A stretch of DNA of 64,000 nt. Source: an uncultured bacterium (GTDB taxonomy: Bacteria > Eisenbacteria > RBG-16-71-46 > CAIMUX01 > WJJG01). How positions within the stretch are numbered: the stretch's first letter is position 1; the number at the start of each line of letters is the position of its first letter. A model generated the notes under the pieces. It did not search any database, was not told where the DNA came from, and was given only the letters and a program-made list of their open reading frames with translations. Below are positions 20,344-58,641 of the stretch, piece after piece. The stretch lies in contig CAZPGB010000019.1 in NCBI GenBank assembly GCA_964585945.1, positions 29,159-93,158 of the forward strand, written 5' to 3'. The position numbers and the translations under genes are program-made.

Positions 20344-20369
20344 CCGGAGTTGCCCCGGGGCAACTCCGG
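20344..20369. terminator. Perfect 13-bp inverted repeat (CCGGAGTTGCCCC/GGGGCAACTCCGG) between convergent genes
   Basis: Seen directly in the sequence, in the 116-bp gap between stops at 20312 (+) and 20429 (-). Confidence 0.45.
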
Positions 20370-22882: not shown

Positions 22883-23131
22883 GATCCTGTCCTCCCATCG
22901 GCCGCTGGAATCCGGAGGAGTCGCGCTCCACGTGGCCTGCGTATGCATCGGCAGATTCCCGGCCGACGTTGAGATCTGCACACCGCGCTCATCCCCTCCA
23001 AGGTGTCACATTTCAATCAGTTGCAGCATTTCAACCACCGCGGACATCTGGGAGGCGCCACGAGCTTGGACTGGTTTCGCGCCGCCGCCGCGCGTATCCT
23101 GCCGTCACGTGAGGAGGAGAAGGAGGCATCG

Positions 23132-25909: not shown

Positions 25910-26054
25910 GCTCGTGACCCTCCCTATCTAGGCTAAATGCGTGACTTCAAAGAGCATGACAGCATAGCACCGGCCGAATCGACCTGCCACCCCAAAAGAG
26001 GGATCGTCCAACCGACGATGGGACAAGGGATGAGCGGGCAAACGCACCGGACGT

Positions 26055-30454: not shown

Positions 30455-33817
<3,363 letters not shown>

Positions 33818-33818
33818 C

Positions 33819-35816
33819 TCACATGAAGTAGTCGAAGTCGCGCTCGCTGCGCACGCGCCGCCGCAAGCGGAAGATCTGGGCGGGATTCATCTGCGGGTCG
33901 AGCCGAACGTAGTTGCGGGATCCTTCCCAGAGGTATCTTCCGTCGCCGATCAGATCGTGCACCTGGAAGCTCTCGGCGGGCCCCACCCCGAACTCGTTGG
34001 TCGGCACTTCCAGCCAGGTGTCGTGCGTGTGGTGAGGATCCACGTTGACCGCGACCAGGATGATGTTGGCGAAGTCGGCAGTGTGCTTGCTGAAGAAGAG
34101 AATCTGATCGTTGTCAGTCGCATGGAAGCGCAGCGAATCGTTGGCGTGCAGCGCCGGGTTCTGCCGCCGGATCTCGTTGATCCGCCGGATCAGGGGCCGA
34201 ATGCTCTGCGGCCCGGGATGGCGCCGGCTGCGGATCTCGTACTTCTCGGAGTGGGCATAGTCTTCGGTGCCCGGCAACGCCTCGTTCTCGCAGTCTTCGA
34301 AACCGCTGTGGATGCCGTAGGACGGTCCCAGCGTGGCGGCCAACACCAGACGCGCCTCGAAGGCCGGCCGTCCTCCGTACTGGAGGTATTCGGGCAAGAT
34401 GTCAGGCGTGTTGGTGAAGAAGTTGGGCCGGAAGAAATCGCGCACCGGCGGACGGGTCAGCTCGGTGAGGTAGTCGCGCAGCTCGCGGGCCGTGTTGCGC
34501 CAGGTGAAGTAGGTGTAGGACTGGTCGAAGCCCACCTTGGCGAGGGCGTACATCATCTTGGGCCAGGTGAATGCCTCGGCGAGGAAGATCGTCTCGGGAT
34601 GCTTGGCCTTCACCTCGCGGATCATCCACTCCCAGAAGCGCAGGGGCTTGGTGTGCGGGTTGTCGACGCGGAAGATGCGCACGCCGCGCTCGCACCAGAA
34701 GAGCGTCACGCGCAACAGCTCGTTCCAGAGGTTGCGCCAGTCGGCGCACTCGAAATCCAGCGGATAGATGTCCTGGTACTTCTTGGGCGGATTCTCCGCG
34801 TACTTGATCGTGCCGTCGGGGCGCTGCCGGAACCAGTCGGGATGCTCGCGGGCGTAGGGATGATCGGGCGAGCACTGGAACGCCAGGTCGAGCGCGATCT
34901 CGAGGCCCGCCTCTTCGGCCGCTCGTCGGAAGCGGTCGAAGTCCTTCAGCGTGCCCAGCTCCGGATGCACCGCGGTGTGTCCGCCCGCGCGCGACCCGAT
35001 CGCCCACGGGCTGCCGGGACTGCCGGCAGGCGCCGGCCAGGTGTTGTTCGGCCCCTTGCGATGCGTCTCGCCGATCGGGTGGATCGGCGGCAGATACAGC
35101 ACGTCGAACCCCAGGTGCGCAATCTCGGGCAGGAGCTGAGCCGCCTCCTCGAAGGTGCCGCTGCGCGACGGGTCGGGCGTCGCCGAGCGGGGGAACATCT
35201 CGTACCAGGCGCCGAAGCGGGCGCGCTCACGCGCGACGTCGATCTCCAACACCGCAGGGTGGGCGGTTTCCTGTCGCCGGTCCGGGTGGCGGGCCATCAC
35301 CGCGGCCAGGTCGGCGCCCAGTCCGCCCTCGATCCGCTCGGCCGCCTCGCGCTCGCCTCCATCGAGGATCGCCGCCCGGGCCTCGAGCCAGGCGCGATCC
35401 TCGCCCGATGCGCGCGCGGCCGCCTCCCGCACCAGACGGCCGCCCTCGAGCAGCTCGCTCGAGACCTCTTGATCGGCGGCCACCTTCTTGCTCAGCTCGC
35501 TGCGCCACGAGCTGAACGCGTCGATCCATGCAGCCACGGTGAACTGATACCCGCGGATGCGGTCGGGCTCGATCCGGAAGGTCGCCTCCCAACGGTCGTT
35601 CAGCAGCCGGCGCATCGGCGTCTCCAACCACCGCCGCCCCCCATTGGGCCGGTAGCGCGCCACCGCCGCCAGATGGTCGTGACCGTCCACAAAGATGTCA
35701 GCTGTCACGACGACGGTCTCACCAACCGTTCGCTTCACCGGGAAGCGGCCGCCCTCCACGCTCGGCTGGACGTTCTCGATCCAGACACGCCGGACCAGCT
35801 CATCGCGCAAGCACAA
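33819..35816 (-). CDS. glgE: Alpha-1,4-glucan:maltose-1-phosphate maltosyltransferase
   Basis: Full-length GlgE similarity (IENVQPSVEGGRFPVKR...RVDNPHTKP...). Confidence 0.9.
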   Translation of the reverse strand: MCLRDELVRRVWIENVQPSVEGGRFPVKRTVGETVVVTADIFVDGHDHLAAVARYRPNGGRRWLETPMRRLLNDRWEATFRIEPDRIRGYQFTVAAWIDAFSSWRSELSKKVAADQEVSSELLEGGRLVREAAARASGEDRAWLEARAAILDGGEREAAERIEGGLGADLAAVMARHPDRRQETAHPAVLEIDVARERARFGAWYEMFPRSATPDPSRSGTFEEAAQLLPEIAHLGFDVLYLPPIHPIGETHRKGPNNTWPAPAGSPGSPWAIGSRAGGHTAVHPELGTLKDFDRFRRAAEEAGLEIALDLAFQCSPDHPYAREHPDWFRQRPDGTIKYAENPPKKYQDIYPLDFECADWRNLWNELLRVTLFWCERGVRIFRVDNPHTKPLRFWEWMIREVKAKHPETIFLAEAFTWPKMMYALAKVGFDQSYTYFTWRNTARELRDYLTELTRPPVRDFFRPNFFTNTPDILPEYLQYGGRPAFEARLVLAATLGPSYGIHSGFEDCENEALPGTEDYAHSEKYEIRSRRHPGPQSIRPLIRRINEIRRQNPALHANDSLRFHATDNDQILFFSKHTADFANIILVAVNVDPHHTHDTWLEVPTNEFGVGPAESFQVHDLIGDGRYLWEGSRNYVRLDPQMNPAQIFRLRRRVRSERDFDYFM

Positions 35817-36996
35817 CCTCCTTGTAGACCTCCAGCGTTCGATCCGCCACGCGCCCCCAGGCGAATTCCGCCTCGGCCCGCCGGCGACCGCAGGCGCCCA
35901 TCGTTCGTCGTTCGTCCTCGTTGCGCAGCAGCCGGTTGACCGCCGCCGCGAGGTCGTGGGCGAAGCGCTCGGGATCCCGGGGTTCCGGGTCCTCGGCCGA
36001 GACCGGCTCGAAGGATACGAGCAGCCCCGTCTCTCCCGGAACGACGATGTCCGGAATGCCGCCCACCGCGCTGGCGACCACCGGAACGCCGCAGGCCATC
36101 GCCTCCAGATTGATCAGCCCGAACGGCTCGTAGACCGAAGGACAGCAGAAGACGGCGCTGTGGCTGTAGAGCGCCACCGCCTCCTCGCGCGACAGATGCT
36201 CGCGGATCCAGACCACCCCGGACCGGCGTTCGCGCAGCCGGGCGATCGCCGCCTCGGTGTCGCGCGCGATCTCGGGAGAGTCGGGAGACGCCGCACAGAC
36301 AACGATTTGGGTCCCATTGTCGAACTGCTCGGCGGCGCGCAGGAAGTGCTCGATCCCCTTTTGCCGGCTCATGCGACCCAGGAACAGCACATAGGGGGAT
36401 TCCCCAGAGATGGCATGGCGCCCGAGCAACCCGGTGTTCGAGGTCGGACGGTAGACCTGCGTGTCGACGCCGTTGGGCACAACGTGCACCCGCTGCTCAG
36501 GCACCGGGAAGAGCGAGAGGATCCGATCCCGCTCGTTGCCCGACACCGCGATGACCGCATCGGCCATCGTGAGCAGGGTTCGCTCCAGCCAGAGCGACAC
36601 GTCGTAGCCGCGGCCGAGCTGCTCCCGCTTCCACGGCCGCAGCGGCTCCAGTGAATGCACTGTGGCGACGAGCGGCACGCCGTAGGCCAGCTTGGCCAGG
36701 ATGCCGCCCCAGGCGCTGTACCAGGTGTGGCAGTGCACCACATCAGCCTCGATCGGCTCGGCGTTGAAGGACACGCCCGTCTCGATCGCCATCAGGGCCA
36801 GACGCGCCTTGTCCGGATTGGCCGCCAGCCGCGCGTCGCCGAACGGATAGCCGCGCACCTGAAGGCGCTCGCCGCGCTGCTCCTGGTCGCCGAAGCACTT
36901 CACCTCGACCCGCGCGCGCTTGGCCATCTCGCGCGCCAGATGCTCTAGGTGCACGCCCGCGCCGCCGTAGACGTGCGGCGGGTATTCGCGCGCCAT
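35800..36996 (-). CDS. GT4 glycosyltransferase, GlgA/GlgM-like (alpha-glucan or maltose-1-phosphate synthase)
   Basis: Start at MAREYPPHVYGGAGVHLEHL. GT4 motifs: EPFGLINLEAMACGVPVVASAVGG. It sits between glgX and glgE, as in actinobacterial GlgE loci. Confidence 0.75.
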   Translation of the reverse strand: MAREYPPHVYGGAGVHLEHLAREMAKRARVEVKCFGDQEQRGERLQVRGYPFGDARLAANPDKARLALMAIETGVSFNAEPIEADVVHCHTWYSAWGGILAKLAYGVPLVATVHSLEPLRPWKREQLGRGYDVSLWLERTLLTMADAVIAVSGNERDRILSLFPVPEQRVHVVPNGVDTQVYRPTSNTGLLGRHAISGESPYVLFLGRMSRQKGIEHFLRAAEQFDNGTQIVVCAASPDSPEIARDTEAAIARLRERRSGVVWIREHLSREEAVALYSHSAVFCCPSVYEPFGLINLEAMACGVPVVASAVGGIPDIVVPGETGLLVSFEPVSAEDPEPRDPERFAHDLAAAVNRLLRNEDERRTMGACGRRRAEAEFAWGRVADRTLEVYKEVVLAR

Positions 36997-37085
36997 GTAG
37001 ACGACCCGCAAGAAGGGTCCCTCTGTCACAGCCGACCTCCCTTTTCTCGCCTCGGCCCGGCACGGCCGGGGCGGGTTCTTTCGAT

Positions 37086-39227
<2,142 letters not shown>

Positions 39228-39428
39228 CGTGAACCTCCGATCTGCCTTGGCGTTTCCGGCTCCAGGCGTGGCCGCCGCGCGTCCTAGCCGGAGTCCGCGC
39301 GGCAACACAGGGTGCCACGGTCACATATCCCGCTTGCCGAACGGTCCCACGCTACAACCCGAGGCCCGCTTCAAGCGAGCGCGTTCTGCGATCGACCTGC
39401 GCCGGATTCGGTGAAGAGCCCACCGCCA

Positions 39429-44106: not shown

Positions 44107-45900
44107 CTACTTCAGCCGCAGCAGCCGCAGCGCCGGGCCGTCGGATGGGCCACCGATCCGGACCAGGTAGAGACCGCCCGGCACCGGGCGTCCCCGGTCG
44201 TCGGTGCCGTCCCACTCGACGCTGCGCGGGCCCGTCCGGGCGTCCAGCACCAATCGCCGCACGCGGCGACCGGCGGCATCGGTGATGCGCACGACCGGAG
44301 GATCGTCTGCGGCCGCCGGCCGCGGCCCCGTGAAGGTCAGCCGGGTGCGGCCGGCGAAGGGATTGGGTCGCGCGGCCAGCAGGACGTCCGGCTCAAACAG
44401 GTCCGCCCGCTCCTCCGCGATGTCGCTGCTGCCCTGGAAGAGGAAGAGCGCGTTGTAGAGGCTGAGCCGCCCGCCCGAGACGGTCTTGCCCTCCAGGCTG
44501 GGCAATAGGTCGACCCCGTCCAGGATCGCCTGCTTGACCTGAAGCACGACCGCGTCCGGGTCTTGCCGGTAATCGGTCAGCCAGGGCGTGGTCGCCGCGG
44601 CCGCCATCAGCGCGACGCTGCCGGCGACATGGGGCGAGGCCTGCGAGGTGCCGGTGCGGGTTTCGTAGTCGTTGCCGACGTCGGTCGACAGCACGTAGTC
44701 GCCCGGCGCGCCCAGGTCGATCGTCGTCGGTCCCCAGGCCGAGCGGTACTGGATGACGTTGCCGATCGTGGTGCAGGTCACCGTGATCAGGTAGTCGCTC
44801 GGACAGGCGGTCGGCATGTCGCCCTCGAGGTCGATATTCCAGTTGTGATTGGCCGTCGCCGCCGTGCTCAGCACCCCCTCCTCGCCGAGGGCATCGTACA
44901 TCGCGCACCAGAGCGGATACGCGGCCGGGTCGCCGCGGTCGATGCCAAAGGAGCTATTGGCTACCACGACGAAGGCGCCCTCGGTGCCGGAGCTCGCGTT
45001 GTAGCGGGCGCGCATCTCGAGCACGTAGCCGTAGGCCTCGCAGACCACCGCCTCGCTCTCGGCCGACCCGACCACGGGCAGCACGTATCCTTCCCAGTTG
45101 ACGCCGCTGATGCCGACGCCGTTGTCGCCGATCGCCGCCGCGATGCCGGTCACGTGCGCGCCGTGGGAGGCGTCGGGGATCGTGCCGTCGTGGGCGATCG
45201 CGTTCCACCCGTGGTAGTCATCGACGTAGCCGTTGCCGTCGTCGTCCTGGCCGTTGTTCGGGACCTCGCGCCAGTTCTTCCAGAAACGCAGGTCCTCGTG
45301 CGTGAGGCAGGAGCCGTCGTCGACAATGGCGATCACGACCGTGTCGCCCAGCGCGGTCACGCCCCCCGTGTGACGCTCCCACGCCTCGGGCGCATCGATG
45401 TCGGAGTCGGGCACGCCGCCCTGACCGCCCTGGTAGTCGAGCGCCCACTGATCGGGAAAGAGCGGGTCGTTCGGGTAGAGCGAGCGGTTCTGGACGTAGT
45501 GGTTGCGCTGGGCCAGACGCACCGCCGGATGGGCCCGCACGCGTCCGAGCAGCGCCGGCTCGGCGTCGGCATCGGCCGCGTGACGGAAGAGCCAGATGCC
45601 CATGCGCCGCGACAGGAGCCGCGCCGCCTCGAGCCCCTCGGCCGCGAACGCATCCTCCAGAGCACCCACCTCGGCGGTCGGCTCGGCCGGGGCGGGTTGC
45701 GCCGCGAAGGGCAGGCTGGGATCGGGCGCGAGCTGGATCAGCATCTCGCCGGGAACGTAGGGGGCCTCCGCCGCCGGTGGTCCTGGAACGGCCAGGATCG
45801 CCGCGCACCCAACGGCCGCCGCGAGACGGCCGGCACCCATCTTGGAAGCTCGGCGCCGGGGCGGCATCCTCTTCGAACCACGTTGCACCATCATCCGCAT
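44107..45900 (-). CDS. Subtilisin-like serine protease (S8) with C-terminal T9SS sorting domain
   Basis: Signal peptide present. Catalytic Asp (VAIVDDG), His (HGAHVTGIAAA) and Ser (GTSQASPHVAGSVALM). CTD: TRLTFTGPRP...VVRITDAAGRRVRRLVLDARTGPRSVEWDG...GLYLVRI. Confidence 0.85.
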   Translation of the reverse strand: MRMMVQRGSKRMPPRRRASKMGAGRLAAAVGCAAILAVPGPPAAEAPYVPGEMLIQLAPDPSLPFAAQPAPAEPTAEVGALEDAFAAEGLEAARLLSRRMGIWLFRHAADADAEPALLGRVRAHPAVRLAQRNHYVQNRSLYPNDPLFPDQWALDYQGGQGGVPDSDIDAPEAWERHTGGVTALGDTVVIAIVDDGSCLTHEDLRFWKNWREVPNNGQDDDGNGYVDDYHGWNAIAHDGTIPDASHGAHVTGIAAAIGDNGVGISGVNWEGYVLPVVGSAESEAVVCEAYGYVLEMRARYNASSGTEGAFVVVANSSFGIDRGDPAAYPLWCAMYDALGEEGVLSTAATANHNWNIDLEGDMPTACPSDYLITVTCTTIGNVIQYRSAWGPTTIDLGAPGDYVLSTDVGNDYETRTGTSQASPHVAGSVALMAAAATTPWLTDYRQDPDAVVLQVKQAILDGVDLLPSLEGKTVSGGRLSLYNALFLFQGSSDIAEERADLFEPDVLLAARPNPFAGRTRLTFTGPRPAAADDPPVVRITDAAGRRVRRLVLDARTGPRSVEWDGTDDRGRPVPGGLYLVRIGGPSDGPALRLLRLK

Positions 45901-46001: not shown

Positions 46002-46865
46002 CTACGCCTCGGCCCAGAGCCGGACGAAGAGCTCGATCGATCCGGGGGCGTATCCGGCGAAGTGGTTGTTGAAGTAGGCGTAGACGCTGTCTTGACGCTC
46101 CAGCATCCGCCGCCCCAGCGCCACCCAGTCGCGCGTCTGGGCGCTGCGATCGACCAGCAGCTCGCCCCACTGCTTCTCGCGCCGGCCCGCTTCCTGCGCC
46201 TCGCGCACCAGCTTGTCCATCTGGCGGTGGTTGCCGAGGAAGCGGATGTAGCTGAACGGGCCGGTCACCGGATCGGGGCCGGCGAAGAGTCTGCCGGGGC
46301 CCGGCATGGTGTAGTAGGCCGTGAAGGCCAGGGTCGCCCCGTGCGCGCGCAGCAGGTCGAAGAGCGGCTCGGCCAGCCACTTGGCGTTGCGGACCTCGAC
46401 CACGAACGAATCACCGGCCGGGAGCTGCGGCAGGAAGCGTCCCAGGCGATCCAGGAACGACGCGCCGGTCTCGTACTCGTGCGGGTCCTTGCCCTTGGCC
46501 ACGTACGGAAACTGCAGCAGCAAGGGGCCGCGCTTCTCTCCCAGGGGCTCCAGGCGGCGCAAGAAGGCGTTCATCTCCGCGCTGCAGTTCTCGAGCGCCA
46601 ACTCGTGGGTGATCTTCTTGGGCACCTTCAGGCTGAAGATGAAGTCTTGCGGCACCTTTTGCGCCCAGCCCTCGACCGTGCGCTTCGACGGCATCGCGTA
46701 CCAGGTGGCGTCGATCTCCACCGTGGGGAAGGTCCGCGCGTAGTGCGCCAGAAACTCCCCCGGCTCCATCCCGGCCGGGTAGAAGCTGCCCCGCCAATCC
46801 GAGGAGCTGAAGGATGATGTGCCGACGCGCAGCCCCGGCGGCAGCGCCGAGAGATCCAAGTCCAT
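46002..46865 (-). CDS. DUF72 (YecE/UPF0759) family protein
   Basis: Start at MDLDLSALPPGLRVGTSSFSSSDW. DUF72 signature: GTSxxSxxxW...FYP...EIDxTxY. Confidence 0.7.
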   Translation of the reverse strand: MDLDLSALPPGLRVGTSSFSSSDWRGSFYPAGMEPGEFLAHYARTFPTVEIDATWYAMPSKRTVEGWAQKVPQDFIFSLKVPKKITHELALENCSAEMNAFLRRLEPLGEKRGPLLLQFPYVAKGKDPHEYETGASFLDRLGRFLPQLPAGDSFVVEVRNAKWLAEPLFDLLRAHGATLAFTAYYTMPGPGRLFAGPDPVTGPFSYIRFLGNHRQMDKLVREAQEAGRREKQWGELLVDRSAQTRDWVALGRRMLERQDSVYAYFNNHFAGYAPGSIELFVRLWAEA

Positions 46866-46920
46866 GATCCACACCCTCGCATCCCCGCGAAACCTCCCGC
46901 GGGGTGTGACTGTAGCCACA

Positions 46921-46966
46921 AGGGCCAGCGACCCTGATCGGCCAGGGCCAGTGACCCTGATCGGCC
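46921..46966. repeat. 23-bp direct tandem repeat x2 (AGGGCCAG[C/T]GACCCTGATCGGCC) in a divergent promoter region
   Basis: Seen directly, between the DUF72 start (46865, -) and the O-methyltransferase start (47122, +). Confidence 0.6.
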
Positions 46967-47121
46967 AGCTACGCCGATCACGTCGTGTGCGCCGTTACCC
47001 GGCCGGGCGTCCGGCGGTTCCTATCCGAGAGAGCGAGAGATCGCCTGTCCACCGGCGACCGTCCGGGATGGCCTTTCCGCCCGCGACCGGGCGGCATCTG
47101 TGTGAAAGGAGAAGCACCATC

Positions 47122-47820
47122 ATGTCGGGACACACCCTCGCGATGACCGATACGCTCCGTGAGTATCTCAACCGCGCCTGGCTGCGGGAACCCCCCATCC
47201 TGAGCCGGTTGCGCGAGGAGACCGCCGCCCTCGGGTCGGCGGCCAGCATGCAGATCGCCCCCGAGCAAGGCCAGTTGATGGCGTTGATCTTGGAGCTGAT
47301 CGGCGCCGAGCGGGTGCTGGAGATCGGCGCCTTCACGGGGTACAGCGCCCTGTCCATGGCCCGGGCGCTGCCGGAGCACGGACGGCTGATCACCTGCGAC
47401 GTCAGCGACGACTACACGCGCATCGCCCGGCGTTACTGGAAGGAGGCCGGGGTGGCCGATCGCATCGAGCTGCGCTTGGCTCCAGCCCGCGAGACGCTCA
47501 ATCAGCTCCTGGCACAGGGCGAGGCGGAGACCTTCGACGCCTGCTTCATCGACGCCGACAAGGAGAGCTACGAGGAATACTACGAGCTGGCCCTGCGTCT
47601 GGTGCGCCCGGGCGGACTGATCATGCTCGACAATGTCTTCTGGAGCGGCAGGGTGGCCGACCCCGAGGTTGACGACGACACCACCGCGGCGCTGCGCCGC
47701 ACCAACGCGCGGCTCCATGGCGACGAGCGGGTGACGCTGGCCGTCGTGCCGATCGCCGACGGCCTCACGCTGGCGCGGAAGCGCCCCGGGTCCGCACAGG
47801 GCGGGCCGGCACGAAGCTGA
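47122..47820 (+). CDS. Class I SAM-dependent O-methyltransferase (family 3, caffeoyl-CoA OMT-like)
   Basis: AAAGGAGAAG RBS. Motifs: VLEIGAFTGYSALSMA...ITCDVS...FDACFIDADKESYEEYYELALRLVRPGGLIMLDNVFWSG. Confidence 0.85.
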   Translation: MSGHTLAMTDTLREYLNRAWLREPPILSRLREETAALGSAASMQIAPEQGQLMALILELIGAERVLEIGAFTGYSALSMARALPEHGRLITCDVSDDYTRIARRYWKEAGVADRIELRLAPARETLNQLLAQGEAETFDACFIDADKESYEEYYELALRLVRPGGLIMLDNVFWSGRVADPEVDDDTTAALRRTNARLHGDERVTLAVVPIADGLTLARKRPGSAQGGPARS

Positions 47821-48868
47821 CATTCATCCGCGGGCCGGCCAGGGCCCGGAGCGTCGCCGCGGATGGCCAGGCGCCGTTCAAGCCATCGGCCGACCTGGGG
47901 CCACGCACCTGCACGATGCTGTCGGGCTCCAGCTCTCGCAGGCGACGGCGCAGCCGCTCGATCGCGGGCGACCCGTCTCGATCCACCGGCATCGACACGA
48001 TGTGCATCGGGCGGCTGTGCAACGGGTGCATGCGCACCTCGTCCAAACGTCCGCCGTTGCCGGCACCGCGCACGAAGCGCAGCGTGAGGACGCCCTTGGT
48101 CTCCCCCCGCTCCGCGAAGGACGTCCTCTGCGTGGAGCCCGCAAAACAGACCGGCGCCGCCAGGGGACGCCCGCGCCGATCGGAGCGCAGCACCTGCCCG
48201 CGGTGCAGATGCCCCGCCAGCACCGCCGCGAACCCGGCCGGCAGGCTCGCGGCCGGTACAACGTCGGGGGCATTGCCGAAACGGTATCCGTGGAGTCCCA
48301 CGGCGGCGCCCTCGATGAGCTGGTGCATGCAGAGCAGGCGCACGTCGGCCGGGATGTCGAGGGCGCCCGTCGCGCGCACCAGTCGGCCGAAGTGCCGGCG
48401 CAGGTCGAGCCGACTGTAGGGAAAGCCGCCCACGGCCACAGCCTGTCCGCGGATCGTGAGGCGGATCGTCCGCGGATGGTCGCAGACGTGCACGCCCGGC
48501 CGGTTCCACAGCAGCGGATAGGGCATAGCCGAGCGCTCGTGGTTGCCCGGAACGATGATGATCGGCACACGGCGCGCCACGGCTCCGAGACGGTCGATGA
48601 CACCGGCCGCCAAACCGATCGGGACCCGGCTGCGATAGAAGAGGTCCCCGCCGTGCACGATCAGATCGACCCGCGCGCGGACGGCGATGTCGAAGGCCCG
48701 CTCCAAGCTCTCGGTGAACTCCACGCCCCGACGCCGGCGTGCAATCCTCGCGCAGCGGGGGGTGTCGAACCCGAGATGGGTGTCCGAGAGAAAGAGCACC
48801 CGCACGGACGCGTCCGGCCCCACCGGTGACGACGCCCCACCGCACACCGACACGCATCGCGGCGCCAT
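47765..48868 (-). CDS. Calcineurin-like metallophosphoesterase (SbcD/Mre11-like DNA-repair exonuclease family)
   Basis: Motifs: VLFLSDTHLG, DLIVHGGDLF, IIVPGNHE. The gene follows the DnaQ/GIY-YIG gene with no gap (a tight coupling arrangement). Confidence 0.65.
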   Translation of the reverse strand: MAPRCVSVCGGASSPVGPDASVRVLFLSDTHLGFDTPRCARIARRRRGVEFTESLERAFDIAVRARVDLIVHGGDLFYRSRVPIGLAAGVIDRLGAVARRVPIIIVPGNHERSAMPYPLLWNRPGVHVCDHPRTIRLTIRGQAVAVGGFPYSRLDLRRHFGRLVRATGALDIPADVRLLCMHQLIEGAAVGLHGYRFGNAPDVVPAASLPAGFAAVLAGHLHRGQVLRSDRRGRPLAAPVCFAGSTQRTSFAERGETKGVLTLRFVRGAGNGGRLDEVRMHPLHSRPMHIVSMPVDRDGSPAIERLRRRLRELEPDSIVQVRGPRSADGLNGAWPSAATLRALAGPRMNVSFVPARPVRTRGASAPA

Positions 48869-48870
48869 GC

Positions 48871-50712
48871 TCAACACCTCGCCAGGAGCGAGCGCAAGGC
48901 GTCGCCGTGAAGCCGCAGGCCGGGGCTCAGAAGAAGCTCCACCTCACGGCCTTGGCTGGTGAGACGGCGCATCTCGGTCATCAGAACGCGCAGCCGGTTG
49001 TAGGTGAGCCGGTCGAAGGCCGCCAGCCGATCCAGGCGCGATGGGAAGCCTTCCCGTAGCGCATCGCTTCCCCTACCCTCGAGAGCATCGACCTCTGCGA
49101 TCGCGCCCCCTCGAATCGACAGGGTCCGCGGCGCGTCCTGCCCCTCCGGCGCGTCCGGCGCGTCCGGCGCCTCCGGCGGCGGATTCCACCGGAGCACCGA
49201 CTCGCTCAGCAGCGCCAGCAGGCGTGCCCGGCTGCGAAGCCGCGCCGCGTGCACCAGGAGGTGTTCGAGACCGTCGGCCACCTCGGCGGGCTCCAGCGGG
49301 GCGATCTCCGCCGCCGCCTCCTCGTCGGCCGGTCCCTCTTCGAGCCGCGGATCGACGCTCTCCGCCTCCGTCGCGCCGCTGGAAACCGCACGCGCCGCTT
49401 CGAGCTGCTCGGTTACGCGGGCCGTCAGCAGGACCGCGCCTGCCTGCATGAGAAAGGGCGCGTCCCACCGCCCCGCGGTCAGATCGCGGTGACGTTCGCG
49501 CAGCAGGTCGCACCCGTGGCGCAACGCCTGGGTCTCCAAGCGTCGCGGATCGAGCATGAGTTGCCGCGCGGTCCCGGGAAGATCGCTGAGCCGGCGCCGC
49601 GGGGCGCGCAGCAGATCGGCCAGCACGCGGACGGCCGCGAGTGTTTCGCGGCCGGGCAACGGCCCCAGGGAGTGCCGCTCATCGGGAGATTCGCGCCAGC
49701 TCGTCAGATCACGGCTGCAGAACCAGACCCCCTGGCCTTGGTCCCGCAGGGCGCGGTTGTAGGGCGGATCGAAACGGTGGATCTGTTCCACCTCGAGCAG
49801 AGCGGCCTCCAGGGCGCTTCGGGTGCAGGATGCTTGCACGTCGTGGGCGCGGGTGACCAGCTCGAGCAGCTTCTCCTCGCACCGCCGTTTGCGGTAGTAG
49901 CTGTTCACCCGCTTGCGCAGCGAGGTGGCCTTGCCCACGTAGAGCACCTCGCTCGACCGGCTCAGGAACCGGTACACACCCGGCTGGTCAGGCAGCCCGA
50001 GCCGCGTCTCCCGGGCGAGGGGGTATCGCCAGCGGGTCGCGCGCGCCGGGGGCTTCCCCGCCAGCAGCGGCAGCAGCTCATCGAGCATGCGGATGCCGCG
50101 CTCGCGCTCGAGCTGCGCGACCAGGCGCGCCCAGAGACCCGCCTGCGCCGCCACGTGGTCTGCGGCCCGCTTCAGCTCCGGCACCGGAAGGTCGAAGTAG
50201 CCGGCGAGCGCGCGCAGACCGCGCCGGGGAAGGTCCGGAAAGAGCCGGCGGGCGATCTCGTGCGTGCAGAGCCATTGCAGTGGAAAGCGTCTCCGCGGGT
50301 CGCACTCCGCATGGAGGTGGCGGAGGAACTGGTCCTCGAAGCGGGCGAAGTGGGCGACCGCCGCCACCGGGCGACCCCGGCCGGTGGCGGCTCGGCGCAA
50401 GAGCCGCCACGCGCTCCCCCGGGCGACCGCCGCGCCCAAATCCGCGTCGCGCAGTCCGGTCAGCCGGGTGATCGCGCGCGGGATCCCGGCTCCCGGCGGC
50501 AGGGCCACCAGATGGCTCTCGATCGCGGGCCGGTTCCGGCTCCAGGAGGCCGCGCTCGTGCGGGTCCAGCCGATCTCGAGGAGGTGCCCGCGCTGGGGAT
50601 TGGCGCCGGTCGTCTGGCAGTCGACGACCAGAACCGGTGCGTGCCTCAGGTTGCCATCCACGACGTCCTCCGCCCAGCGCGAGCCCCTCGCTGGTGCAGG
50701 ATGACTGAACAT
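48871..50712 (-). CDS. DnaQ-like 3'-5' exonuclease domain fused to GIY-YIG nuclease domain (Rv2191-like architecture)
   Basis: Start at MFSHPAPARGSRW. DEDD exonuclease motif: VLVVDCQTTGANPQRGHLLEIGW. GIY-YIG motif: QPGVYRFLSRSSEVLYVGKATSLRKRVNSYY. Confidence 0.7.
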   Translation of the reverse strand: MFSHPAPARGSRWAEDVVDGNLRHAPVLVVDCQTTGANPQRGHLLEIGWTRTSAASWSRNRPAIESHLVALPPGAGIPRAITRLTGLRDADLGAAVARGSAWRLLRRAATGRGRPVAAVAHFARFEDQFLRHLHAECDPRRRFPLQWLCTHEIARRLFPDLPRRGLRALAGYFDLPVPELKRAADHVAAQAGLWARLVAQLERERGIRMLDELLPLLAGKPPARATRWRYPLARETRLGLPDQPGVYRFLSRSSEVLYVGKATSLRKRVNSYYRKRRCEEKLLELVTRAHDVQASCTRSALEAALLEVEQIHRFDPPYNRALRDQGQGVWFCSRDLTSWRESPDERHSLGPLPGRETLAAVRVLADLLRAPRRRLSDLPGTARQLMLDPRRLETQALRHGCDLLRERHRDLTAGRWDAPFLMQAGAVLLTARVTEQLEAARAVSSGATEAESVDPRLEEGPADEEAAAEIAPLEPAEVADGLEHLLVHAARLRSRARLLALLSESVLRWNPPPEAPDAPDAPEGQDAPRTLSIRGGAIAEVDALEGRGSDALREGFPSRLDRLAAFDRLTYNRLRVLMTEMRRLTSQGREVELLLSPGLRLHGDALRSLLARC

Positions 50713-50719
50713 TTGTTCA
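50704..50719. promoter_or_regulatory. Candidate LexA (Cheo-type) SOS box, CTGAACA-TT-TGTTCAG, overlapping the start codon of the exonuclease/GIY-YIG gene
   Basis: Perfect 7+2+7 palindrome containing GAAC-N4-GTTC. The ATG (50712..50710, minus) lies inside it. Confidence 0.4.
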
Positions 50720-50758
50720 GTGTCAAGAAGGCGGTGGGCGTCGCGCTGTCGTCGCCGG

Positions 50759-51634
50759 CTACAGCCAGAGCGGCTCCAGGCCCGGCCCCGAGGCGTCGAG
50801 TCTTCCGGAATCACGCAGGGCGTCGAGCTCGGCCACCAGCCGCTCCTGATCCCGTGGAAACCGGCCGGCCAGGGGCACGACATTGGACACATGATTGGCC
50901 CGGAAGAGTGTGCGGTGCAGGTCCAGGTGCGACACCAGCTCGCGGAGCTCCTGTACGGCCTCCAGCTCCGTGAGTTGCTGAAATGAGCCGCCCGCGATGG
51001 CGTGCATGAGCGGCGTCCCGGGAACCGGGATGTAGCGAAGCGCCGCCAGGAAAGCCGGCTGCATGCCGTTGACCGCTTCGGCGGTGGCGACCGCGTGCAC
51101 GCGCGACCGTTGGCGACCGGCCAGGCCGGTCAGCACCATCACCGACATGCGCAATCCCGCGGCCTGGGCGCGCTGGGCGGCGAAGATCATCTCCGAGGCG
51201 CGATCGCACTTTCCCACGCGCGACAATGTTTCCTGGTCCCCGCTCTCGAGCCCCATGTAGAGGGTGTGCAAGCGTGCAGCGCGCAGACGGCGGAGCTGCG
51301 CGTCGGACTTGGACAGGATGGAACGACCGTTGGCGTAGAGGCTCACGCGGGCCAGGCGAGGCAGCCGGGCGGCGAGACGATCCAGGATGCGGCCCAGCCG
51401 TTCGTAGGAGAAGGCCATCACGTCACCGTCGGCCAGAAAGACACGCGCAGCGGCCGGATCGCTCATGGCGGCCTGGTCGATGGCTCGATCGATCTCCTCG
51501 GACGTGTGGGCCCGATAGCGGACCGACTTGTACATGCCGCAGAAGGTGCACCCGTTATGCGGGCACCCATCGGCAACGCGCAGGATGAGGCTGTCGGCCT
51601 CCGATGGGGGGCGGAACATGGGCAACTCTTGCAT
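50759..51634 (-). CDS. Radical SAM domain protein (Cys motif CPHNGCTFC, Cx4Cx2C spacing)
   Basis: Cys-rich motif at residues ~23-31, followed by Gly-rich SAM-binding and TIM-barrel-like segments. Function unknown. Confidence 0.6.
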   Translation of the reverse strand: MQELPMFRPPSEADSLILRVADGCPHNGCTFCGMYKSVRYRAHTSEEIDRAIDQAAMSDPAAARVFLADGDVMAFSYERLGRILDRLAARLPRLARVSLYANGRSILSKSDAQLRRLRAARLHTLYMGLESGDQETLSRVGKCDRASEMIFAAQRAQAAGLRMSVMVLTGLAGRQRSRVHAVATAEAVNGMQPAFLAALRYIPVPGTPLMHAIAGGSFQQLTELEAVQELRELVSHLDLHRTLFRANHVSNVVPLAGRFPRDQERLVAELDALRDSGRLDASGPGLEPLWL

Positions 51635-55184: not shown

Positions 55185-55240
55185 TCCCGCCCGGCGGGCC
55201 TCCTCGGTAAGGACCTGTGCTGGAAACCTGCGGGGCGACC

Positions 55241-56203
55241 ATGCGGCAGCCGGAAGGCGTGATCTTTGATCTGCAGCGCTACGCCATTCATGACGGGCCG
55301 GGCATTCGCACGACCATCTACTTCAAGGGCTGTCCGCTGGTCTGCGACTGGTGCCACAACCCAGAGGGCCAGGACCCGGATGCTCAGCTCCTGATCGATC
55401 CCTCGCGTTGCATCCGGTGCGGCGCGTGCGCGCAGGTCTGCCCCGAGGGCCTGGCGGCGCCCGCCCCAGGGGGTGTCGGGGACGAGGCCGCGGCGTCCGA
55501 TGGCGCCGCGGCGGACGGGCGCGGGGATGAGCCGACCGCCGGGCGGTGTCGCCGGTGCGGCCGGTGTGCCGAGGCGTGTCCGGCCCAGGCCCGGCGCATG
55601 GCCGGACGGTGGGTATCAGCGGAGCGTCTGGTGGACGAGATCGAGCGCGATCGGCCCTTCTTCGAGAGCTCGGGCGGCGGCGTGACCTTCTCGGGCGGCG
55701 AGCCCTTGTTGCAGGCGACGTTCCTGCTGGCGACCCTCGCCGAATGCCGCCGTCGCGGTCTTCATCGCGTAGTCGACACCTGCGGATACGCCCCGCCCGC
55801 GACGCTGTCGGCCGTCGCCGAGGAGACCGATCTGTTCCTCTTCGACCTGAAGACCATCGACCCGCAGCGCCATCGCGCGCACACCGGCGTTGCGCTGGAA
55901 CCGATCCTCGCGAACCTGCGCCTGCTGGACGATCGCGGGGCGGTGGTCTGGATCCGGACCCCCTTGATCGCGGGTTTCAATGATACCCCCGAACAGATCG
56001 AAGCGATGGGTCGCCTGGTCGCCTCGCTGAACCAGGTGCGGCGCATCCACCTGCTGCCGTATCATCGCGGCGCCGAGGCCAAGCTCGCGCGTCTGGGGCG
56101 GGCGCCTGGGCCCACGCCCTACGCCACGCCGCATTTGGAAGAGCTGGAAGGGGCCCGCCGCCGTCTGGAGCGTCTCGGCCTGGAGGCGATCGCGGGAGGA
56201 TAG
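55241..56203 (+). CDS. Glycyl-radical-enzyme activating enzyme (radical SAM with two auxiliary ferredoxin-like 4Fe-4S motifs)
   Basis: Radical-SAM motif CPLVCDWCHN. Auxiliary clusters: CIRCGACAQVCP and CRRCGRCAEACP. GGEPLL is present. Confidence 0.85.
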   Translation: MRQPEGVIFDLQRYAIHDGPGIRTTIYFKGCPLVCDWCHNPEGQDPDAQLLIDPSRCIRCGACAQVCPEGLAAPAPGGVGDEAAASDGAAADGRGDEPTAGRCRRCGRCAEACPAQARRMAGRWVSAERLVDEIERDRPFFESSGGGVTFSGGEPLLQATFLLATLAECRRRGLHRVVDTCGYAPPATLSAVAEETDLFLFDLKTIDPQRHRAHTGVALEPILANLRLLDDRGAVVWIRTPLIAGFNDTPEQIEAMGRLVASLNQVRRIHLLPYHRGAEAKLARLGRAPGPTPYATPHLEELEGARRRLERLGLEAIAGG

Positions 56204-56280
56204 CTCCGCGGTGCGGCCGCATGAGCCGGCCGACCGCGCGAGCGCCGAAGGGCGGGTTGGTAGAAAGGAAGTCCCGAGCC

Positions 56281-58641
56281 ATGACCGAACGGGTTCGTCG
56301 ACTGCGCCAGCAGAGCCTGGCCGCGCTGCCGTCGCTCAGCGCCGAGCGGGCGCGCATCGTGACGCGCTTCTACCGCGAGCAGAGCGGGAAGCACTCGGTC
56401 CCCGTGCTGCGCGCCCTTGCGTTCGAGCGCATCTGTGCGGAGAAGACGATTCATCTGGGTGCCGGGGAGCTGATCGTCGGCGAGCGGGGTCCGGCGCCCA
56501 AGGCGGTGCCCACCTTCCCGGAGCTGACCTGCCACAGCCTCGAGGACCTGCGTTTGCTCGACACGCGGCCCAAGACGCGCTATGCGGTCGCTCAAGACGT
56601 GTTTCGCGTCTACGAAGAGGAGATCATCCCCTACTGGCAGGGCCGCAGCCTCCGCGACCGCATCTTCGCCGCGATAACCCCCCAGTGGCAACGCGCGTAC
56701 GAGGCGGGCATCTTCACCGAGTTCATGGAACAGCGGGCGCCCGGACACACGGTGGCCGACGGGAAGATCTACGCCCACGGGCTGCTCGACTTCAAGGCGC
56801 GGATCGACGAGGCGCAGGGCGCGCTCGACTTCGCCCGCGACCCGCGCGCCTATTCGCGGGCCGAGCAGCTCCGCGCCATGGCCATCGCCGCCGACGCCCT
56901 GATCGCCTTCGCCCGGCGGCACGCCGAGCGCGCCCGGGAGCTGGCGGCCGCAGAAGCCGACCCGGAGCGCCGGGCCGAGCTCGAGCGGATCACCGAGATC
57001 TGCACCCACGTGCCGGCGCACGCGCCGCGCGACTTCCACGAGGCGCTCCAGGCCTACTGGTTCTGCCACCTGGCGGTGATCACCGAGCTCAATGGGTGGG
57101 ACGCGTTCAGCCCCGGGCACCTCGACCAGCACCTGGAGCCTTTCTATCGGCAAGGGCTCGCCGACGGCACGCTCTCGCGCGAACGGGCCCGCGAGCTGCT
57201 GAGCTGTTTGTTCATCAAGTTCAACAACCATCCCGCCCCTCCCAAGGTGGGCGTCACCGCGGCCGAGAGCGGCACCTACACCGACTTCGCCAACATCAAC
57301 CTGGCTGGCCTGAAGCGCGACGGCAGTGACGCTGCCGGCGAGGTGTCCTACCTGCTGCTGGAGGTGATCGACGAGCTCCATCTGCTGCAGCCCAGCCAGA
57401 ACGTGCAGATCTCGCGCCGGACCCCCGACCGGTTCCTCCACGAGGCCCTGCGCGTGATCCGCAAGGGCTACGGGTTTCCTTCGGTCTTCAACGCCGACAC
57501 GGTGGTGGCCCAGATGCTGCGCCAGGGCAAGCGGATCGAGGACGCGCGCGAGGGCGGCACCAGCGGCTGCGTGGAGACCGGGGCCTTCGGTAAGGAGGCC
57601 TACATTCTGACCGGCTACTTCAACCTGCCCAAGGTGCTGGAGCTGACGCTGCACAACGGCCGTGATCCCCGCACCGGCCTGCAGCTCGGGCCCAACACCG
57701 GTGATGCGGCGGGCCTGGCGACGTTCGATCATCTGATCCAGGCATGGCAGCGCCAGGTGGAACACTTCGTGGAGATCAAGGTCCGCGGCAATCAGGTGAT
57801 CGAGCGGCTCTACGCCGAGCAGATGCCCGCCCCGTTCCTCTCGCTGATCACCGATGACTGCATCGCCACCGGACGTGACTACAACGACGGCGGCGCCCGC
57901 TACAACACGACCTACATCCAGGGTGTCGGCATCGGCACGCTGACCGACAGCCTGGCGGCCCTGCGCACACACGTGTATCGGAGAGAAACCCTCGGCATGG
58001 CGGAGCTCCTGGCCGCCCTGGCGGAGGACTTCAGCGGCCACGATCCGCTCCTCAACCTGCTGCGGCACCGCACCCCCAAGTGGGGCAACGACGACGACGA
58101 GGCCGACGATCTGATGCGGACCGCCTTCGAAGTCTTCTTCAACGCCGTCGAGGGACGGCCCAACACCAAGGGCGGCCACTATCACATCAACATGCTGCCC
58201 ACCACGTGTCACATCTACTTCGGCTCGGTCACGGGCGCCACGCCCGACGGTCGCCGGGCGGAAGCACCGTTGTCCGAAGGCATCTCGCCGGTGCAGGGCA
58301 TGGACCGCAAGGGTCCGACCGCCGTCTTCCTGTCGGCCGCCAAGATGGACCACGTCAAGACGGGCGGCACGTTGCTCAACATGAAGTTCGTGCCGCAGGT
58401 GCTCGGCGGCGAGGACGGGCTGGCCAAGCTGGCGGCCCTGGTGCGCACCTACTTCCGCCTGGGCGGCCACCATGTCCAGTTCAACGTGGTGCGCGCCGAG
58501 ACGCTGCGGGCCGCCCAGTCCGATCCCGACGCGCACCGTGACCTGATCGTGCGCGTGGCCGGATACAGCGACTACTTCTGCGATCTGTCCGAGGCGCTGC
58601 AGAACGAGATCATCGCGCGCACCGAGCAGCAGCTCTCCTGA
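56281..58641 (+). CDS. Glycyl radical enzyme of the dehydratase/lyase (Cys-x-Glu) class; substrate unknown (HypD / CutC / glycerol-dehydratase-like)
   Basis: AAAGGAAG RBS. Thiyl-loop motif GGTSGCVETGAFGKE (C-x-E). C-terminal glycine-radical motif RVAGYSDYFCDL. Confidence 0.8.
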   Translation: MTERVRRLRQQSLAALPSLSAERARIVTRFYREQSGKHSVPVLRALAFERICAEKTIHLGAGELIVGERGPAPKAVPTFPELTCHSLEDLRLLDTRPKTRYAVAQDVFRVYEEEIIPYWQGRSLRDRIFAAITPQWQRAYEAGIFTEFMEQRAPGHTVADGKIYAHGLLDFKARIDEAQGALDFARDPRAYSRAEQLRAMAIAADALIAFARRHAERARELAAAEADPERRAELERITEICTHVPAHAPRDFHEALQAYWFCHLAVITELNGWDAFSPGHLDQHLEPFYRQGLADGTLSRERARELLSCLFIKFNNHPAPPKVGVTAAESGTYTDFANINLAGLKRDGSDAAGEVSYLLLEVIDELHLLQPSQNVQISRRTPDRFLHEALRVIRKGYGFPSVFNADTVVAQMLRQGKRIEDAREGGTSGCVETGAFGKEAYILTGYFNLPKVLELTLHNGRDPRTGLQLGPNTGDAAGLATFDHLIQAWQRQVEHFVEIKVRGNQVIERLYAEQMPAPFLSLITDDCIATGRDYNDGGARYNTTYIQGVGIGTLTDSLAALRTHVYRRETLGMAELLAALAEDFSGHDPLLNLLRHRTPKWGNDDDEADDLMRTAFEVFFNAVEGRPNTKGGHYHINMLPTTCHIYFGSVTGATPDGRRAEAPLSEGISPVQGMDRKGPTAVFLSAAKMDHVKTGGTLLNMKFVPQVLGGEDGLAKLAALVRTYFRLGGHHVQFNVVRAETLRAAQSDPDAHRDLIVRVAGYSDYFCDLSEALQNEIIARTEQQLS

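What the first reader, a model, noticed from the sequence alone, without database searches (positions are those of the whole stretch)
47765..50719. SOS-box-like palindrome over the start codon of a DnaQ-exonuclease/GIY-YIG + SbcD-like phosphoesterase operon
CTGAACATTTGTTCAG is a perfect 7-2-7 palindrome containing GAAC-N4-GTTC. It matches the Cheo-type LexA box core and covers the ATG of a two-nuclease operon whose genes are tightly coupled (no gap). This is a typical DNA-damage-inducible arrangement, and the Rv2191-like exonuclease-GIY-YIG fusion is itself poorly characterised.
Basis: partly seen in the sequence, partly recalled or inferred. Interest (0 to 1): 0.6.

Follow-up and report, generated by a model that had tools for sequence, protein, structure and literature searches.

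The report
Conserved SOS-type operator before two nucleases
A perfect palindrome sits inside the promoter of a two-gene DNA-nuclease operon and is conserved in distant relatives, so it is most likely an ordinary DNA-damage (LexA-type) repressor site in an uncultured bacterial lineage, and it does not mark the gene's start codon.

Summary
The palindrome is real: CTGAACATTTGTTCAG at 50705-50720, extending to 8-2-8 at 50704-50721. Within the window it is not statistically unusual. Its position and conservation are what make it significant.

- **Position.** It directly abuts a perfect TTGACA -35 hexamer and lies about 45 nt upstream of the likely GTG start at 50661. The ATG inside it is not a conserved start codon.
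- **Conservation.** TTGACACTGAACAAATGTTCAG is identical upstream of orthologues that share only 49-51% protein identity. Near-variants with the ACAWATGT core occur in four more relatives. The flanking DNA is unalignable.
- **Link to LexA elsewhere.** The same 16-mer, in the same -35/box/-10 layout, precedes recA in an Elusimicrobiota contig and a lexA-Y-family polymerase operon in another lineage. Myxococcota orthologues of the nuclease carry the published M. xanthus-type LexA box.
- **Untested point.** I could not obtain lexA or recA promoters from the window's own, Eisenbacteria-like lineage, so LexA binding there is inferred.
- **The operon.** It encodes a Cho-like GIY-YIG nuclease fused to an epsilon-like domain, followed by an Mre11/SbcD-like phosphoesterase. 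The epsilon-like domain has an incomplete catalytic set (an invariant D-x-Q).

Verdict: a new member of a known kind, of moderate interest.

The parts
50721..50726 (-). Perfect -35-like hexamer TTGACA, directly abutting the palindrome. Its last A is the first base of the 8-2-8 palindrome.
   Evidence: Sequence. TTGACA sits 0-2 nt 5' of the box in 6 of 7 close relatives. The same layout occurs in the recA and lexA promoters of L112, L192 and L212.
50704..50721 (.). Operator-like palindrome ACTGAACA-AA-TGTTCAGT (8-2-8). The core 16-mer CTGAACAAATGTTCAG is at 50705-50720. Proposed binding site of a LexA-type repressor dimer.
   Evidence: Searches show its presence. Searches show conservation: the ACAWWTGT core occurs once per locus, always at this position. 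Searches find the same 16-mer next to recA, lexA, a Pol III alpha-type gene, DUF222 and nth genes in metagenomes.
50698..50703 (-). Candidate -10 hexamer CATCCT, 17 nt after the -35. It is weak: only A2 and T6 match TATAAT.
   Evidence: Inferred from spacing. The tool's sigma-70 scan does not call a promoter here. Relatives have CATGGT, CAGTCT, TCTACT, TAATCT or TATGAT at the equivalent place.
50666..50671 (-). Shine-Dalgarno-like GGAGGA, 4 nt before the GTG start.
   Evidence: Sequence. It fits the gene start chosen by the gene caller.
48871..50661 (-). Gene 1, 596 aa. It has an N-terminal epsilon/DnaQ-like fold with an incomplete DEDDh set (D14-x-Q16, E109, H169). This is followed by an intact UvrC/Cho-type GIY-YIG domain (residues ~223-310) and a ~280-aa C-terminal region with no known family.
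   Evidence: Pfam and NCBIfam; PDB profile hits to UvrC GIY-YIG at 4e-24; AlphaFold model with pLDDT 89 and Foldseek hits to PolC exo, DinG exo, RNase T and UvrC; catalytic columns.
47765..48868 (-). Gene 2, 367 aa. An Mre11/SbcD-like calcineurin-type phosphoesterase with the DxH, GD and GNHE motifs present. It starts 2 nt after the stop of gene 1.
   Evidence: Pfam Metallophos 48.9 bits; weak NCBIfam Mre11/SbcD hits; PDB hits to T. maritima SbcD/Mre11 at 2e-10 over residues 22-287. An orthologue lies directly downstream in 31 of 80 genome loci and in most close relatives.

Best explanation
The palindrome is the operator of a damage-responsive repressor, most likely LexA or a LexA-like S24 repressor. 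It is built into the spacer of the promoter of a two-nuclease operon.

**Proposed mechanism**
1. A repressor dimer bound to CTGAAC-AAAT-GTTCAG, immediately downstream of the TTGACA -35 hexamer, would block RNA polymerase.
2. After DNA damage, RecA-stimulated self-cleavage of the repressor would free the promoter.
3. The cell would then make a Cho-like GIY-YIG incision nuclease, carrying an epsilon-like domain that is probably catalytically impaired, together with an Mre11/SbcD-like phosphoesterase. The phosphoesterase could supply end-processing or 3'-5' resection.

**Shown:** the site, its promoter position, its conservation, the domain content of both genes, and the use of the same sequence at recA and lexA promoters in other lineages.

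**Inferred:** that the binding protein in this lineage is LexA, that the operon is damage-inducible, and the division of labour between the two nucleases.
For: 1. TTGACACTGAACAAATGTTCAG is identical upstream of orthologues from three genomes with 49-51% protein identity, amid unalignable flanks.
2. Four further relatives at 42-46% identity have near-variants at the same place. L208 has GTGAACAAATGTTCAG; L209, L005 and L207 carry the ACATATGT core. The ACAWWTGT core occurs exactly once in each of the seven loci (about 180 kb in total), always at this promoter.
3. In a scan of metagenome contigs, the exact 16-mer lies in a TTGACA-box-TATAGT promoter about 100 nt upstream of recA (L112). It also lies in a TTGACA-box-TATCAT promoter 25 nt upstream of a lexA-Y-family polymerase operon (L192). 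It further abuts a Pol III alpha-type gene (L119), a DUF222 gene (L126) and an endonuclease III gene (L117).
4. A lexA orthologue at 71% identity (L212) keeps TTGACA-A-CTGAACATATGTTCAG-TATGCT.
5. CTGWAC-N4-GTWCAG occurs perfectly upstream of the same nuclease gene in three Myxococcota/deltaproteobacterial loci. That is 3 sites in 22 kb of upstream DNA against 0 in 772 kb of background. It resembles the published M. xanthus SOS box CTRHAMRYBYGTTCAGS.
6. GAAC-N4-GTTC is the established LexA motif of Gram-positive bacteria. A GIY-YIG exonuclease homologous to the Pol III proofreading subunit is reported as a predicted SOS regulon member in Bacteroidetes.
7. No conserved local regulator gene accompanies the operon in relatives, which favours a global regulator.
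Against: - No lexA, recA or other SOS gene of this lineage could be examined. The window, the adjoining 5.6 kb and about 120 kb from relatives contain no SOS gene and no second site.
- The recA example is Elusimicrobiota and the lexA examples are from unidentified lineages, so motif use here is extrapolated.
- One very GC-rich lexA (L216) and a PVC-like lexA (L210) lack this palindrome, which shows that the motif is lineage-specific.
- 74 of the 80 more distant orthologue loci show no GAAC/GTAC-type box.
- The -10 hexamer here is weak and the promoter scanner calls nothing.
- Within-window statistics are unremarkable.
Confidence: 0.65

Rival explanations
1. The palindrome is the operator of a different transcription factor that is unrelated to the SOS response and controls only this operon.
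For: Only one site is seen per locus in about 180 kb of lineage DNA. LexA motif use in this lineage is untested. The operator drifts between relatives (class 1 against the ACATATGT class 2), as could happen with a dedicated regulator. The half-sites also loosely resemble an ARG box (TGAAT-W4-ATTCA; from my own knowledge).
Against: No regulator gene is conserved next to the operon. The identical 16-mer in the same promoter layout precedes recA and lexA elsewhere. Myxococcota orthologues carry the known LexA box type. The regulated genes are DNA-repair nucleases.
Confidence: 0.2
2. The conserved block is only a promoter element (a -35 hexamer plus a constrained spacer) or an RNA hairpin, with no repressor bound. 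The palindromic symmetry is incidental.
For: TTGACA is conserved together with the box. Palindromes of this size are common in the window. A 7-bp hairpin with a 4-nt loop can form in RNA.
Against: Promoter spacers are not normally conserved base for base across 50%-identity orthologues. Dyad symmetry is kept in class-1 sites, and the core is palindromic in all seven. The RNA fold is not significant (z = -1.7), has no U-tract, and would not be transcribed if TTGACA is the -35 hexamer. Variants show no compensatory pairing.
Confidence: 0.1
3. One reading: the palindrome overlaps the true start codon and acts on translation initiation, or on a leaderless mRNA.
For: The ATG at 50710-50712 is in frame with the ORF in the window, L084, L208 and L209. 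One gene caller used it in L084.
Against: The ATG is out of frame in L086 and L207 and is followed by an in-frame stop in L005. It has no ribosome-binding site. It lies only 8 nt after the -35 hexamer, so it would not be in a transcript from this promoter. The extra 17 residues are not conserved. GTG 50661 has a GGAGGA site and was chosen by the gene caller.
Confidence: 0.03

Closest known systems
Cheo box / Gram-positive LexA operator GAAC-N4-GTTC (B. subtilis, M. tuberculosis)
   Same: The core is a perfect GAAC-AAAT-GTTC with an A/T-rich centre. It lies in the promoter of DNA-repair genes.
   Different: The flanks are CTG...CAG rather than C/TCGAAC...GTTCGA. The host is a Gram-negative-type, Eisenbacteria-like uncultured lineage in which no LexA motif has been described. 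Binding is untested.
Myxococcus xanthus SOS box CTRHAMRYBYGTTCAGS (Campoy et al. 2003, as quoted in PMC9705874)
   Same: It shares the CTG-A-C...GTTCAG frame and 16-17 bp length. Myxococcota orthologues of this very gene carry CTGTAC-N4-GTTCAG.
   Different: The window's site is fully symmetric (CTGAAC, not CTGTAC). It departs from the degenerate consensus at 3 of 17 positions: two in the centre and the last base.
E. coli cho (ydjQ), the LexA-regulated GIY-YIG 3'-incision nuclease, and the 'Cho+Exo' / 'Cho-like+Exo' subfamilies (PMC1564403)
   Same: It has a UvrC/Cho-type GIY-YIG domain with an N-terminal epsilon-like domain. The published model is incision followed by 3'-5' digestion. SOS control is known for E. 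coli cho (own knowledge) and predicted for a Bacteroidetes GIY-YIG exonuclease.
   Different: There is no Cys-rich module, no detectable UvrB-binding domain and no Cho C-terminal domain. The ~280-aa C-terminal region matches no family. Exo motif I is D-x-Q in 211 of 240 members, with no D-x-E found. It scores far below the Rv2191-type NCBIfam cut-off. It is often paired with an Mre11-like gene.
SbcD/Mre11 nucleases, and the LexA-regulated B. subtilis yhaO (SbcD-like; from my own knowledge, not checked here)
   Same: It has the calcineurin-type phosphoesterase fold with the nuclease motifs, and matches T. maritima SbcD/Mre11 over about 265 residues.
   Different: No SbcC/Rad50 partner is present in the operon. 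Scores are below the SbcD family cut-off (32.2 against 77.65). It is coupled instead to a GIY-YIG protein.
Balneolaeota LexA motif TTACACATATTTTWTACATA (PMC7739468)
   Same: The half-site TACAYATA resembles the class-2 variants (TACATATGTGTA) found at this promoter in Eisenbacteria-named and allied relatives.
   Different: That motif is a direct repeat, not an inverted repeat. The resemblance is by eye only. The window's class-1 site differs from it.

Membership tests
LexA operator (SOS box) | Dyad-symmetric site of about 14-20 bp overlapping or adjoining the core promoter of the regulated gene | tested here: met
   An 8-2-8 palindrome fills the 17-nt spacer after TTGACA. The -10 hexamer is weak.
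LexA operator (SOS box) | The same motif upstream of lexA and/or recA in the same genome or lineage | not testable with these tools
   There is no lexA or recA in the window, the 5.6-kb extension or the relatives' flanks. The motif is found at recA and lexA only in other lineages.
LexA operator (SOS box) | Conservation of the site upstream of orthologues (phylogenetic footprint) | tested here: met
   An identical 22-mer occurs in 3 genomes and variants in 4 more, each unique in its locus.
LexA operator (SOS box) | Specific binding by LexA and derepression after DNA damage | not testable with these tools
   This needs EMSA or footprinting and expression data.
Cheo-box type motif (GAAC-N4-GTTC) | Match to GAAC-N4-GTTC | tested here: met
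   Perfect match at 50707-50718.
M. xanthus-type box CTRHAMRYBYGTTCAGS | Match to the 17-nt degenerate consensus | tested here: not met
   14 of 17 positions fit. Positions 8, 9 and 17 do not (by inspection against the consensus quoted).
DEDDh (DnaQ/epsilon) 3'-5' exonucleases | Catalytic D-x-E (Exo I), D (Exo II), and H-x4-D (Exo III) | tested here: not met
   The fold is present. Exo I is D-x-Q, Exo II is FE instead of FD, and the Exo III Asp is absent. D-x-Q is found in 211 of 240 members, with none D-x-E.
GIY-YIG nucleases (UvrC/Cho branch) | GIY and YIG motifs plus conserved Arg, Glu and Asn | tested here: met
   G228, Y230, Y241, G243, E290 and N302 are invariant and R251 is conserved in at least 90% of sequences. 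The profile hits UvrC GIY-YIG in the PDB at 4e-24. The single-sequence Pfam score is just below the cut-off (21.4 against 22.6).
Rv2191-type DEDD exonuclease/GIY-YIG protein (NCBIfam PRK07883 models) | Score above the curated equivalog cut-off | tested here: not met
   The best score is 161.6 bits against a cut-off of 495, and the match covers residues 5-352 only.
SbcD/Mre11 nuclease | Metallophosphoesterase motifs, family-level score, and an SbcC/Rad50 partner | tested here: inconclusive
   Pfam Metallophos is passed (48.9 against 21.5) and PDB Mre11/SbcD hits reach 2e-10. TIGR00619 scores 32.2 against 77.65. No SbcC-like gene is adjacent.
Anti-phage defence system | Match of the operon's proteins to PADLOC models | tested here: not met
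   Only the generic DEDDh domain model and PDC-S48 match the exo domain. Gene 2 and the radical SAM gene have no hit.

The most novel reading that the evidence does not exclude
The operon may represent an uncharacterised, phylum-spanning two-nuclease repair module that is damage-inducible in several lineages. It would be a third Cho-like subfamily, with about 635 cluster representatives at 50% identity. Its epsilon-like domain would be a conserved pseudo-exonuclease (invariant D-x-Q) acting as a 3'-end or clamp-binding module. An Mre11-like partner would carry out the resection that the classical 'Cho+Exo' model assigns to the fused exonuclease.
Probability: 0.25. Interest if true: 0.55.

Novelty: new member of a known kind. 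Interest (0 to 1): 0.35.

Why it matters
If confirmed, this site would give the first LexA-type operator and the first SOS regulon member for an uncultured Eisenbacteria-like lineage. The motif, CTGAAC-N4-GTTCAG, links the Gram-positive, myxobacterial and E. coli-type LexA boxes.

It would also add evidence that Cho-like GIY-YIG/epsilon fusion nucleases are recurrent SOS targets across phyla.

The family-wide loss of the exonuclease catalytic Glu and the frequent pairing with an Mre11-like gene suggest a testable variation on the 'incise then resect' repair model.

None of this overturns current understanding. It extends a well-known regulatory pattern.

Tried and rejected
1. **lexA or recA in the window.** Pfam annotation of all large ORFs found no SOS gene.
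2. **More sites.** Scans of the window and of relatives' flanks found none with 1 mismatch or fewer.
3. **Strict GAAC-N4-GTTC upstream of 80 orthologues.** None was found. Known motifs of Bdellovibrio, cyanobacteria and Firmicutes were also absent in the loci from those groups.
4. **Naming the source organism.** Cluster look-ups returned no names. The lineage is inferred as Eisenbacteria-like from the best genome hit, an NCBI-named homologue, and the abundance of FlgD_ig-tagged proteins.
5. **Reaching the lineage's lexA.**
   - The LexA homologue search with L192 returned mostly unnamed lineages.
   - A GC-rich candidate, P0207, proved PVC-like and has CTGAAC half-sites but not this palindrome.
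   - P0211 (L216) has no box.
   - The RecA of L112 proved to be Elusimicrobiota.
6. **Extending the contig.** This gave 5.6 kb with nothing relevant.
7. **Terminator or RNA-structure reading.** Rejected, because there is no U-tract and the fold z-score is -1.7.
8. **Defence-system reading.** Rejected.
10. **Literature on Rv2191 and LexA.** Nothing informative was found.


Full report
**Observation.** On the + strand the window reads CTGAACATTTGTTCAG at 50705-50720. On the gene's (minus) strand this is CTGAACAAATGTTCAG, a perfect palindrome containing GAAC-N4-GTTC. It extends by one pair to ACTGAACA-AA-TGTTCAGT at 50704-50721.

By within-window statistics the site is not remarkable:
- GAAC-N4-GTTC occurs twice against 0.68 expected, and 16 of 100 shuffles reach 2. 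The second copy, at 9106-9117, lies inside an ORF.
- Degenerate matches are not enriched: 17 found against 18.7 expected.
- Perfect palindromes with arms of 8 or more are as frequent as in simulated sequence: 13 against 14. About 0.55 A/T-rich ones are expected per window.

**Genes.** Both genes are on the minus strand.
- Gene 1 is called as 596 aa, starting at GTG 50661 behind a GGAGGA site.
- Gene 2 is called as 367 aa, starting at ATG 48868, 2 nt after the stop of gene 1.
- The upstream radical SAM gene (50759-51634) ends 38 nt before the palindrome. It is not conserved next to the operon in relatives.

**The ATG inside the palindrome is not the start codon.**
- It is 17 codons upstream of the called start, has no ribosome-binding site, and lies 8 nt after a TTGACA hexamer.
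- The extra residues are not conserved.
- In relatives the equivalent ATG is out of frame (L086, L207) or hits a stop after four codons (L005).
- The ATG is simply part of the operator core ACAWATGT.

**Conservation is the decisive evidence that the site is functional.**
- Orthologues with 51% and 49% protein identity (L084 and L086) have exactly TTGACACTGAACAAATGTTCAG upstream, in otherwise unalignable intergenic DNA.
- A 46% relative (L208) has TTGACA-A-GTGAACAAATGTTCAG-TCTACT.
- Three others carry a variant at the same position after the -35 hexamer: TTGACAGGGATACATATGTGTAG-TAATCT (L209), TTGACAGGGGTACATATGTTTAGTG-TATGAT (L005) and TTGTTTTACCCCACATATGTGTAG-TATGAT (L207). The protein encoded by L207 is named Candidatus Eisenbacteria by NCBI.
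- The ACAWWTGT core occurs exactly once in each of these seven loci, always there.
- No regulator gene is conserved beside the operon.

**Is it a LexA box?** There are four lines of indirect support.
1. GAAC-N4-GTTC is the established Gram-positive LexA motif.
2. I scanned metagenome contigs for the exact 16-mer. Among the rest:
   - the box lies in TTGACA-A-box-TATAGT about 100 nt upstream of recA in L112;
   - it lies in TTGACA-AA-box-TATCAT 25 nt upstream of lexA in L192, which is followed by a Y-family polymerase gene;
   - it directly abuts a PHP/Pol III alpha-type gene (L119, probably dnaE2, inferred), a DUF222 gene (L126) and an endonuclease III gene (L117);
   - a lexA orthologue at 71% identity keeps TTGACA-A-CTGAACATATGTTCAG-TATGCT.
   
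   This promoter layout is the same as in the window.
3. Among 80 orthologue loci from GTDB species genomes, CTGWAC-N4-GTWCAG occurs perfectly three times in 22 kb of upstream sequence and never in 772 kb of background. All three are Myxococcota or deltaproteobacterial MAGs, and a one-mismatch site occurs in a fourth. The 12-nt core is about 12-fold enriched upstream. These sites resemble the published M. xanthus SOS box CTRHAMRYBYGTTCAGS.
4. A GIY-YIG exonuclease homologous to the Pol III proofreading subunit is reported as a predicted SOS regulon member in Bacteroidetes.

**What remains untested.** I could not obtain lexA or recA promoters from the window's own lineage.
- The window has no SOS gene. 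The 5.6 kb reachable beyond its right edge has none either, and no second site.
- The recA example is Elusimicrobiota.
- Two other lexA promoters that I inspected lack the palindrome.
- Most distant orthologues show no such box.
- The -10 hexamer (CATCCT) is weak, and the scanner calls no promoter.

I therefore put the LexA-type operator reading at about 0.65. A dedicated non-SOS regulator gets about 0.2. A bare promoter element or hairpin gets about 0.1; the RNA fold has z = -1.7 and no U-tract.

**The proteins.**
- *Gene 1, overall.* The model is confident (pLDDT 89, pTM 0.85). Its N-terminal domain matches the PolC, DinG and RNase T exonuclease folds, and its middle domain matches UvrC GIY-YIG.
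- *Gene 1, GIY-YIG domain.* The catalytic residues are invariant.
- *Gene 1, exonuclease set.* It is incomplete. Motif I is D-x-Q, motif II is FE, and the motif III Asp is missing. D-x-Q is found in 211 of 240 family members and D-x-E in none.
- *Gene 1, C-terminal region.* The last ~280 residues match nothing known.
- *Gene 1, family.* There are about 635 representatives at 50% identity with E of 1e-30 or better. The family is related to, but is not a member of, the Rv2191-type NCBIfam models: 161.6 bits against a cut-off of 495. It also differs from the 'Cho+Exo' and 'Cho-like+Exo' subfamilies described in the literature.
- *Gene 2.* It is an Mre11/SbcD-like phosphoesterase. An orthologue lies directly downstream in 31 of 80 genome loci across several phyla.
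- *Not a defence system.* PADLOC gives no system-level match.

**Verdict.** The finding is a real, conserved, promoter-embedded operator of the LexA-box class in front of a repair-nuclease operon. It is a new member of a known kind, and LexA binding in this lineage is still to be shown.

Noticed in passing
window 48871-50661 (residues 14-16, 104-109, 169-174 of the 596-aa protein): The epsilon-like domain has an invariant D-x-Q (DCQTTG) in place of the catalytic D-x-E. It also has FE in place of FD and no Exo III Asp. 211 of 240 family members have D-x-Q and none has D-x-E, which suggests a conserved pseudo-exonuclease or altered chemistry.
   Followed up: partly
L009 5811, L011 5271, L024 552, L026 5804, L027 918, L036 4147, L054 5785: Desulfobacterales orthologues share a different conserved palindrome, ATTCAA(C/G)(C/T)ATTGAAT(A/T)ATTA, 120-190 nt upstream of the same gene. 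It may be that lineage's own operator.
   Followed up: partly
L209 9947-9963, L005 5934-5950, L207 9957-9974: Class-2 operator variants (TACATATGTGTAG type) have half-sites that resemble the EMSA-validated Balneolaeota LexA repeat TTACACATATTTTWTACATA. The comparison was by eye only.
   Followed up: partly
L210 9845-9945: A lexA gene lies divergent from an S24-like/IMS/DnaE2 (imuA-imuB-dnaE2-type) cassette in a sulfatase-rich, PVC-like contig. The intergenic region has three CTGAAC half-sites. These include a direct repeat ACTGAACATTATACTGAACAG and TTGACA-N10-TGTTCAG-TATATT.
   Followed up: partly
L099 13278-13310, L196 1621-1650, L093 704-737, L183 869-905: Tandem or overlapping copies of the box occur, for example CTGAACAAATGTTCAGAACAGATGTTCAG in GC-rich contigs and ACTGAACAAATGTTCAGTACTGAACACATGTTCAGT in low-GC contigs. 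The adjacent genes were not identified.
   Followed up: no
about 25 loci (e.g. L092 549, L105 636, L141 1584): In rumen and gut metagenomes the same 16-mer is embedded in a repeated element, GTGAAAGT-box-GGGGTTTAGTGAATATTTGG. In human-gut contigs it also forms the loop of long hairpins.
   Followed up: no
window 20344-20369: A perfect 26-bp GC-rich palindrome, CCGGAGTTGCCCCGGGGCAACTCCGG, lies between convergent ORFs 15384-20312 (+) and 20429-23005 (-). It is probably a bidirectional terminator hairpin.
   Followed up: no
window 9106-9117: The only other GAAC-N4-GTTC in the window (GAACTCCAGTTC) lies inside an ORF (8962-9492, minus strand) and has a G/C-rich centre. It is most likely chance.
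   Followed up: yes
window 47765-47820: The 3' end of the phosphoesterase gene overlaps the 3' end of the convergent O-methyltransferase gene (46819-47820, +) by 56 bp.
   Followed up: no
window 5547-7469, 11541-15566, 26034-28475, 44107-45900; 30455-39320; 55211-58641: Many secreted proteins carry C-terminal FlgD_ig domains, including S8 and C25 peptidases. The window also holds a TreS-Mak/GlgE/GlgB alpha-glucan cluster and a glycyl-radical enzyme with its activase. This fits an anaerobic Eisenbacteria-like organism.
   Followed up: no
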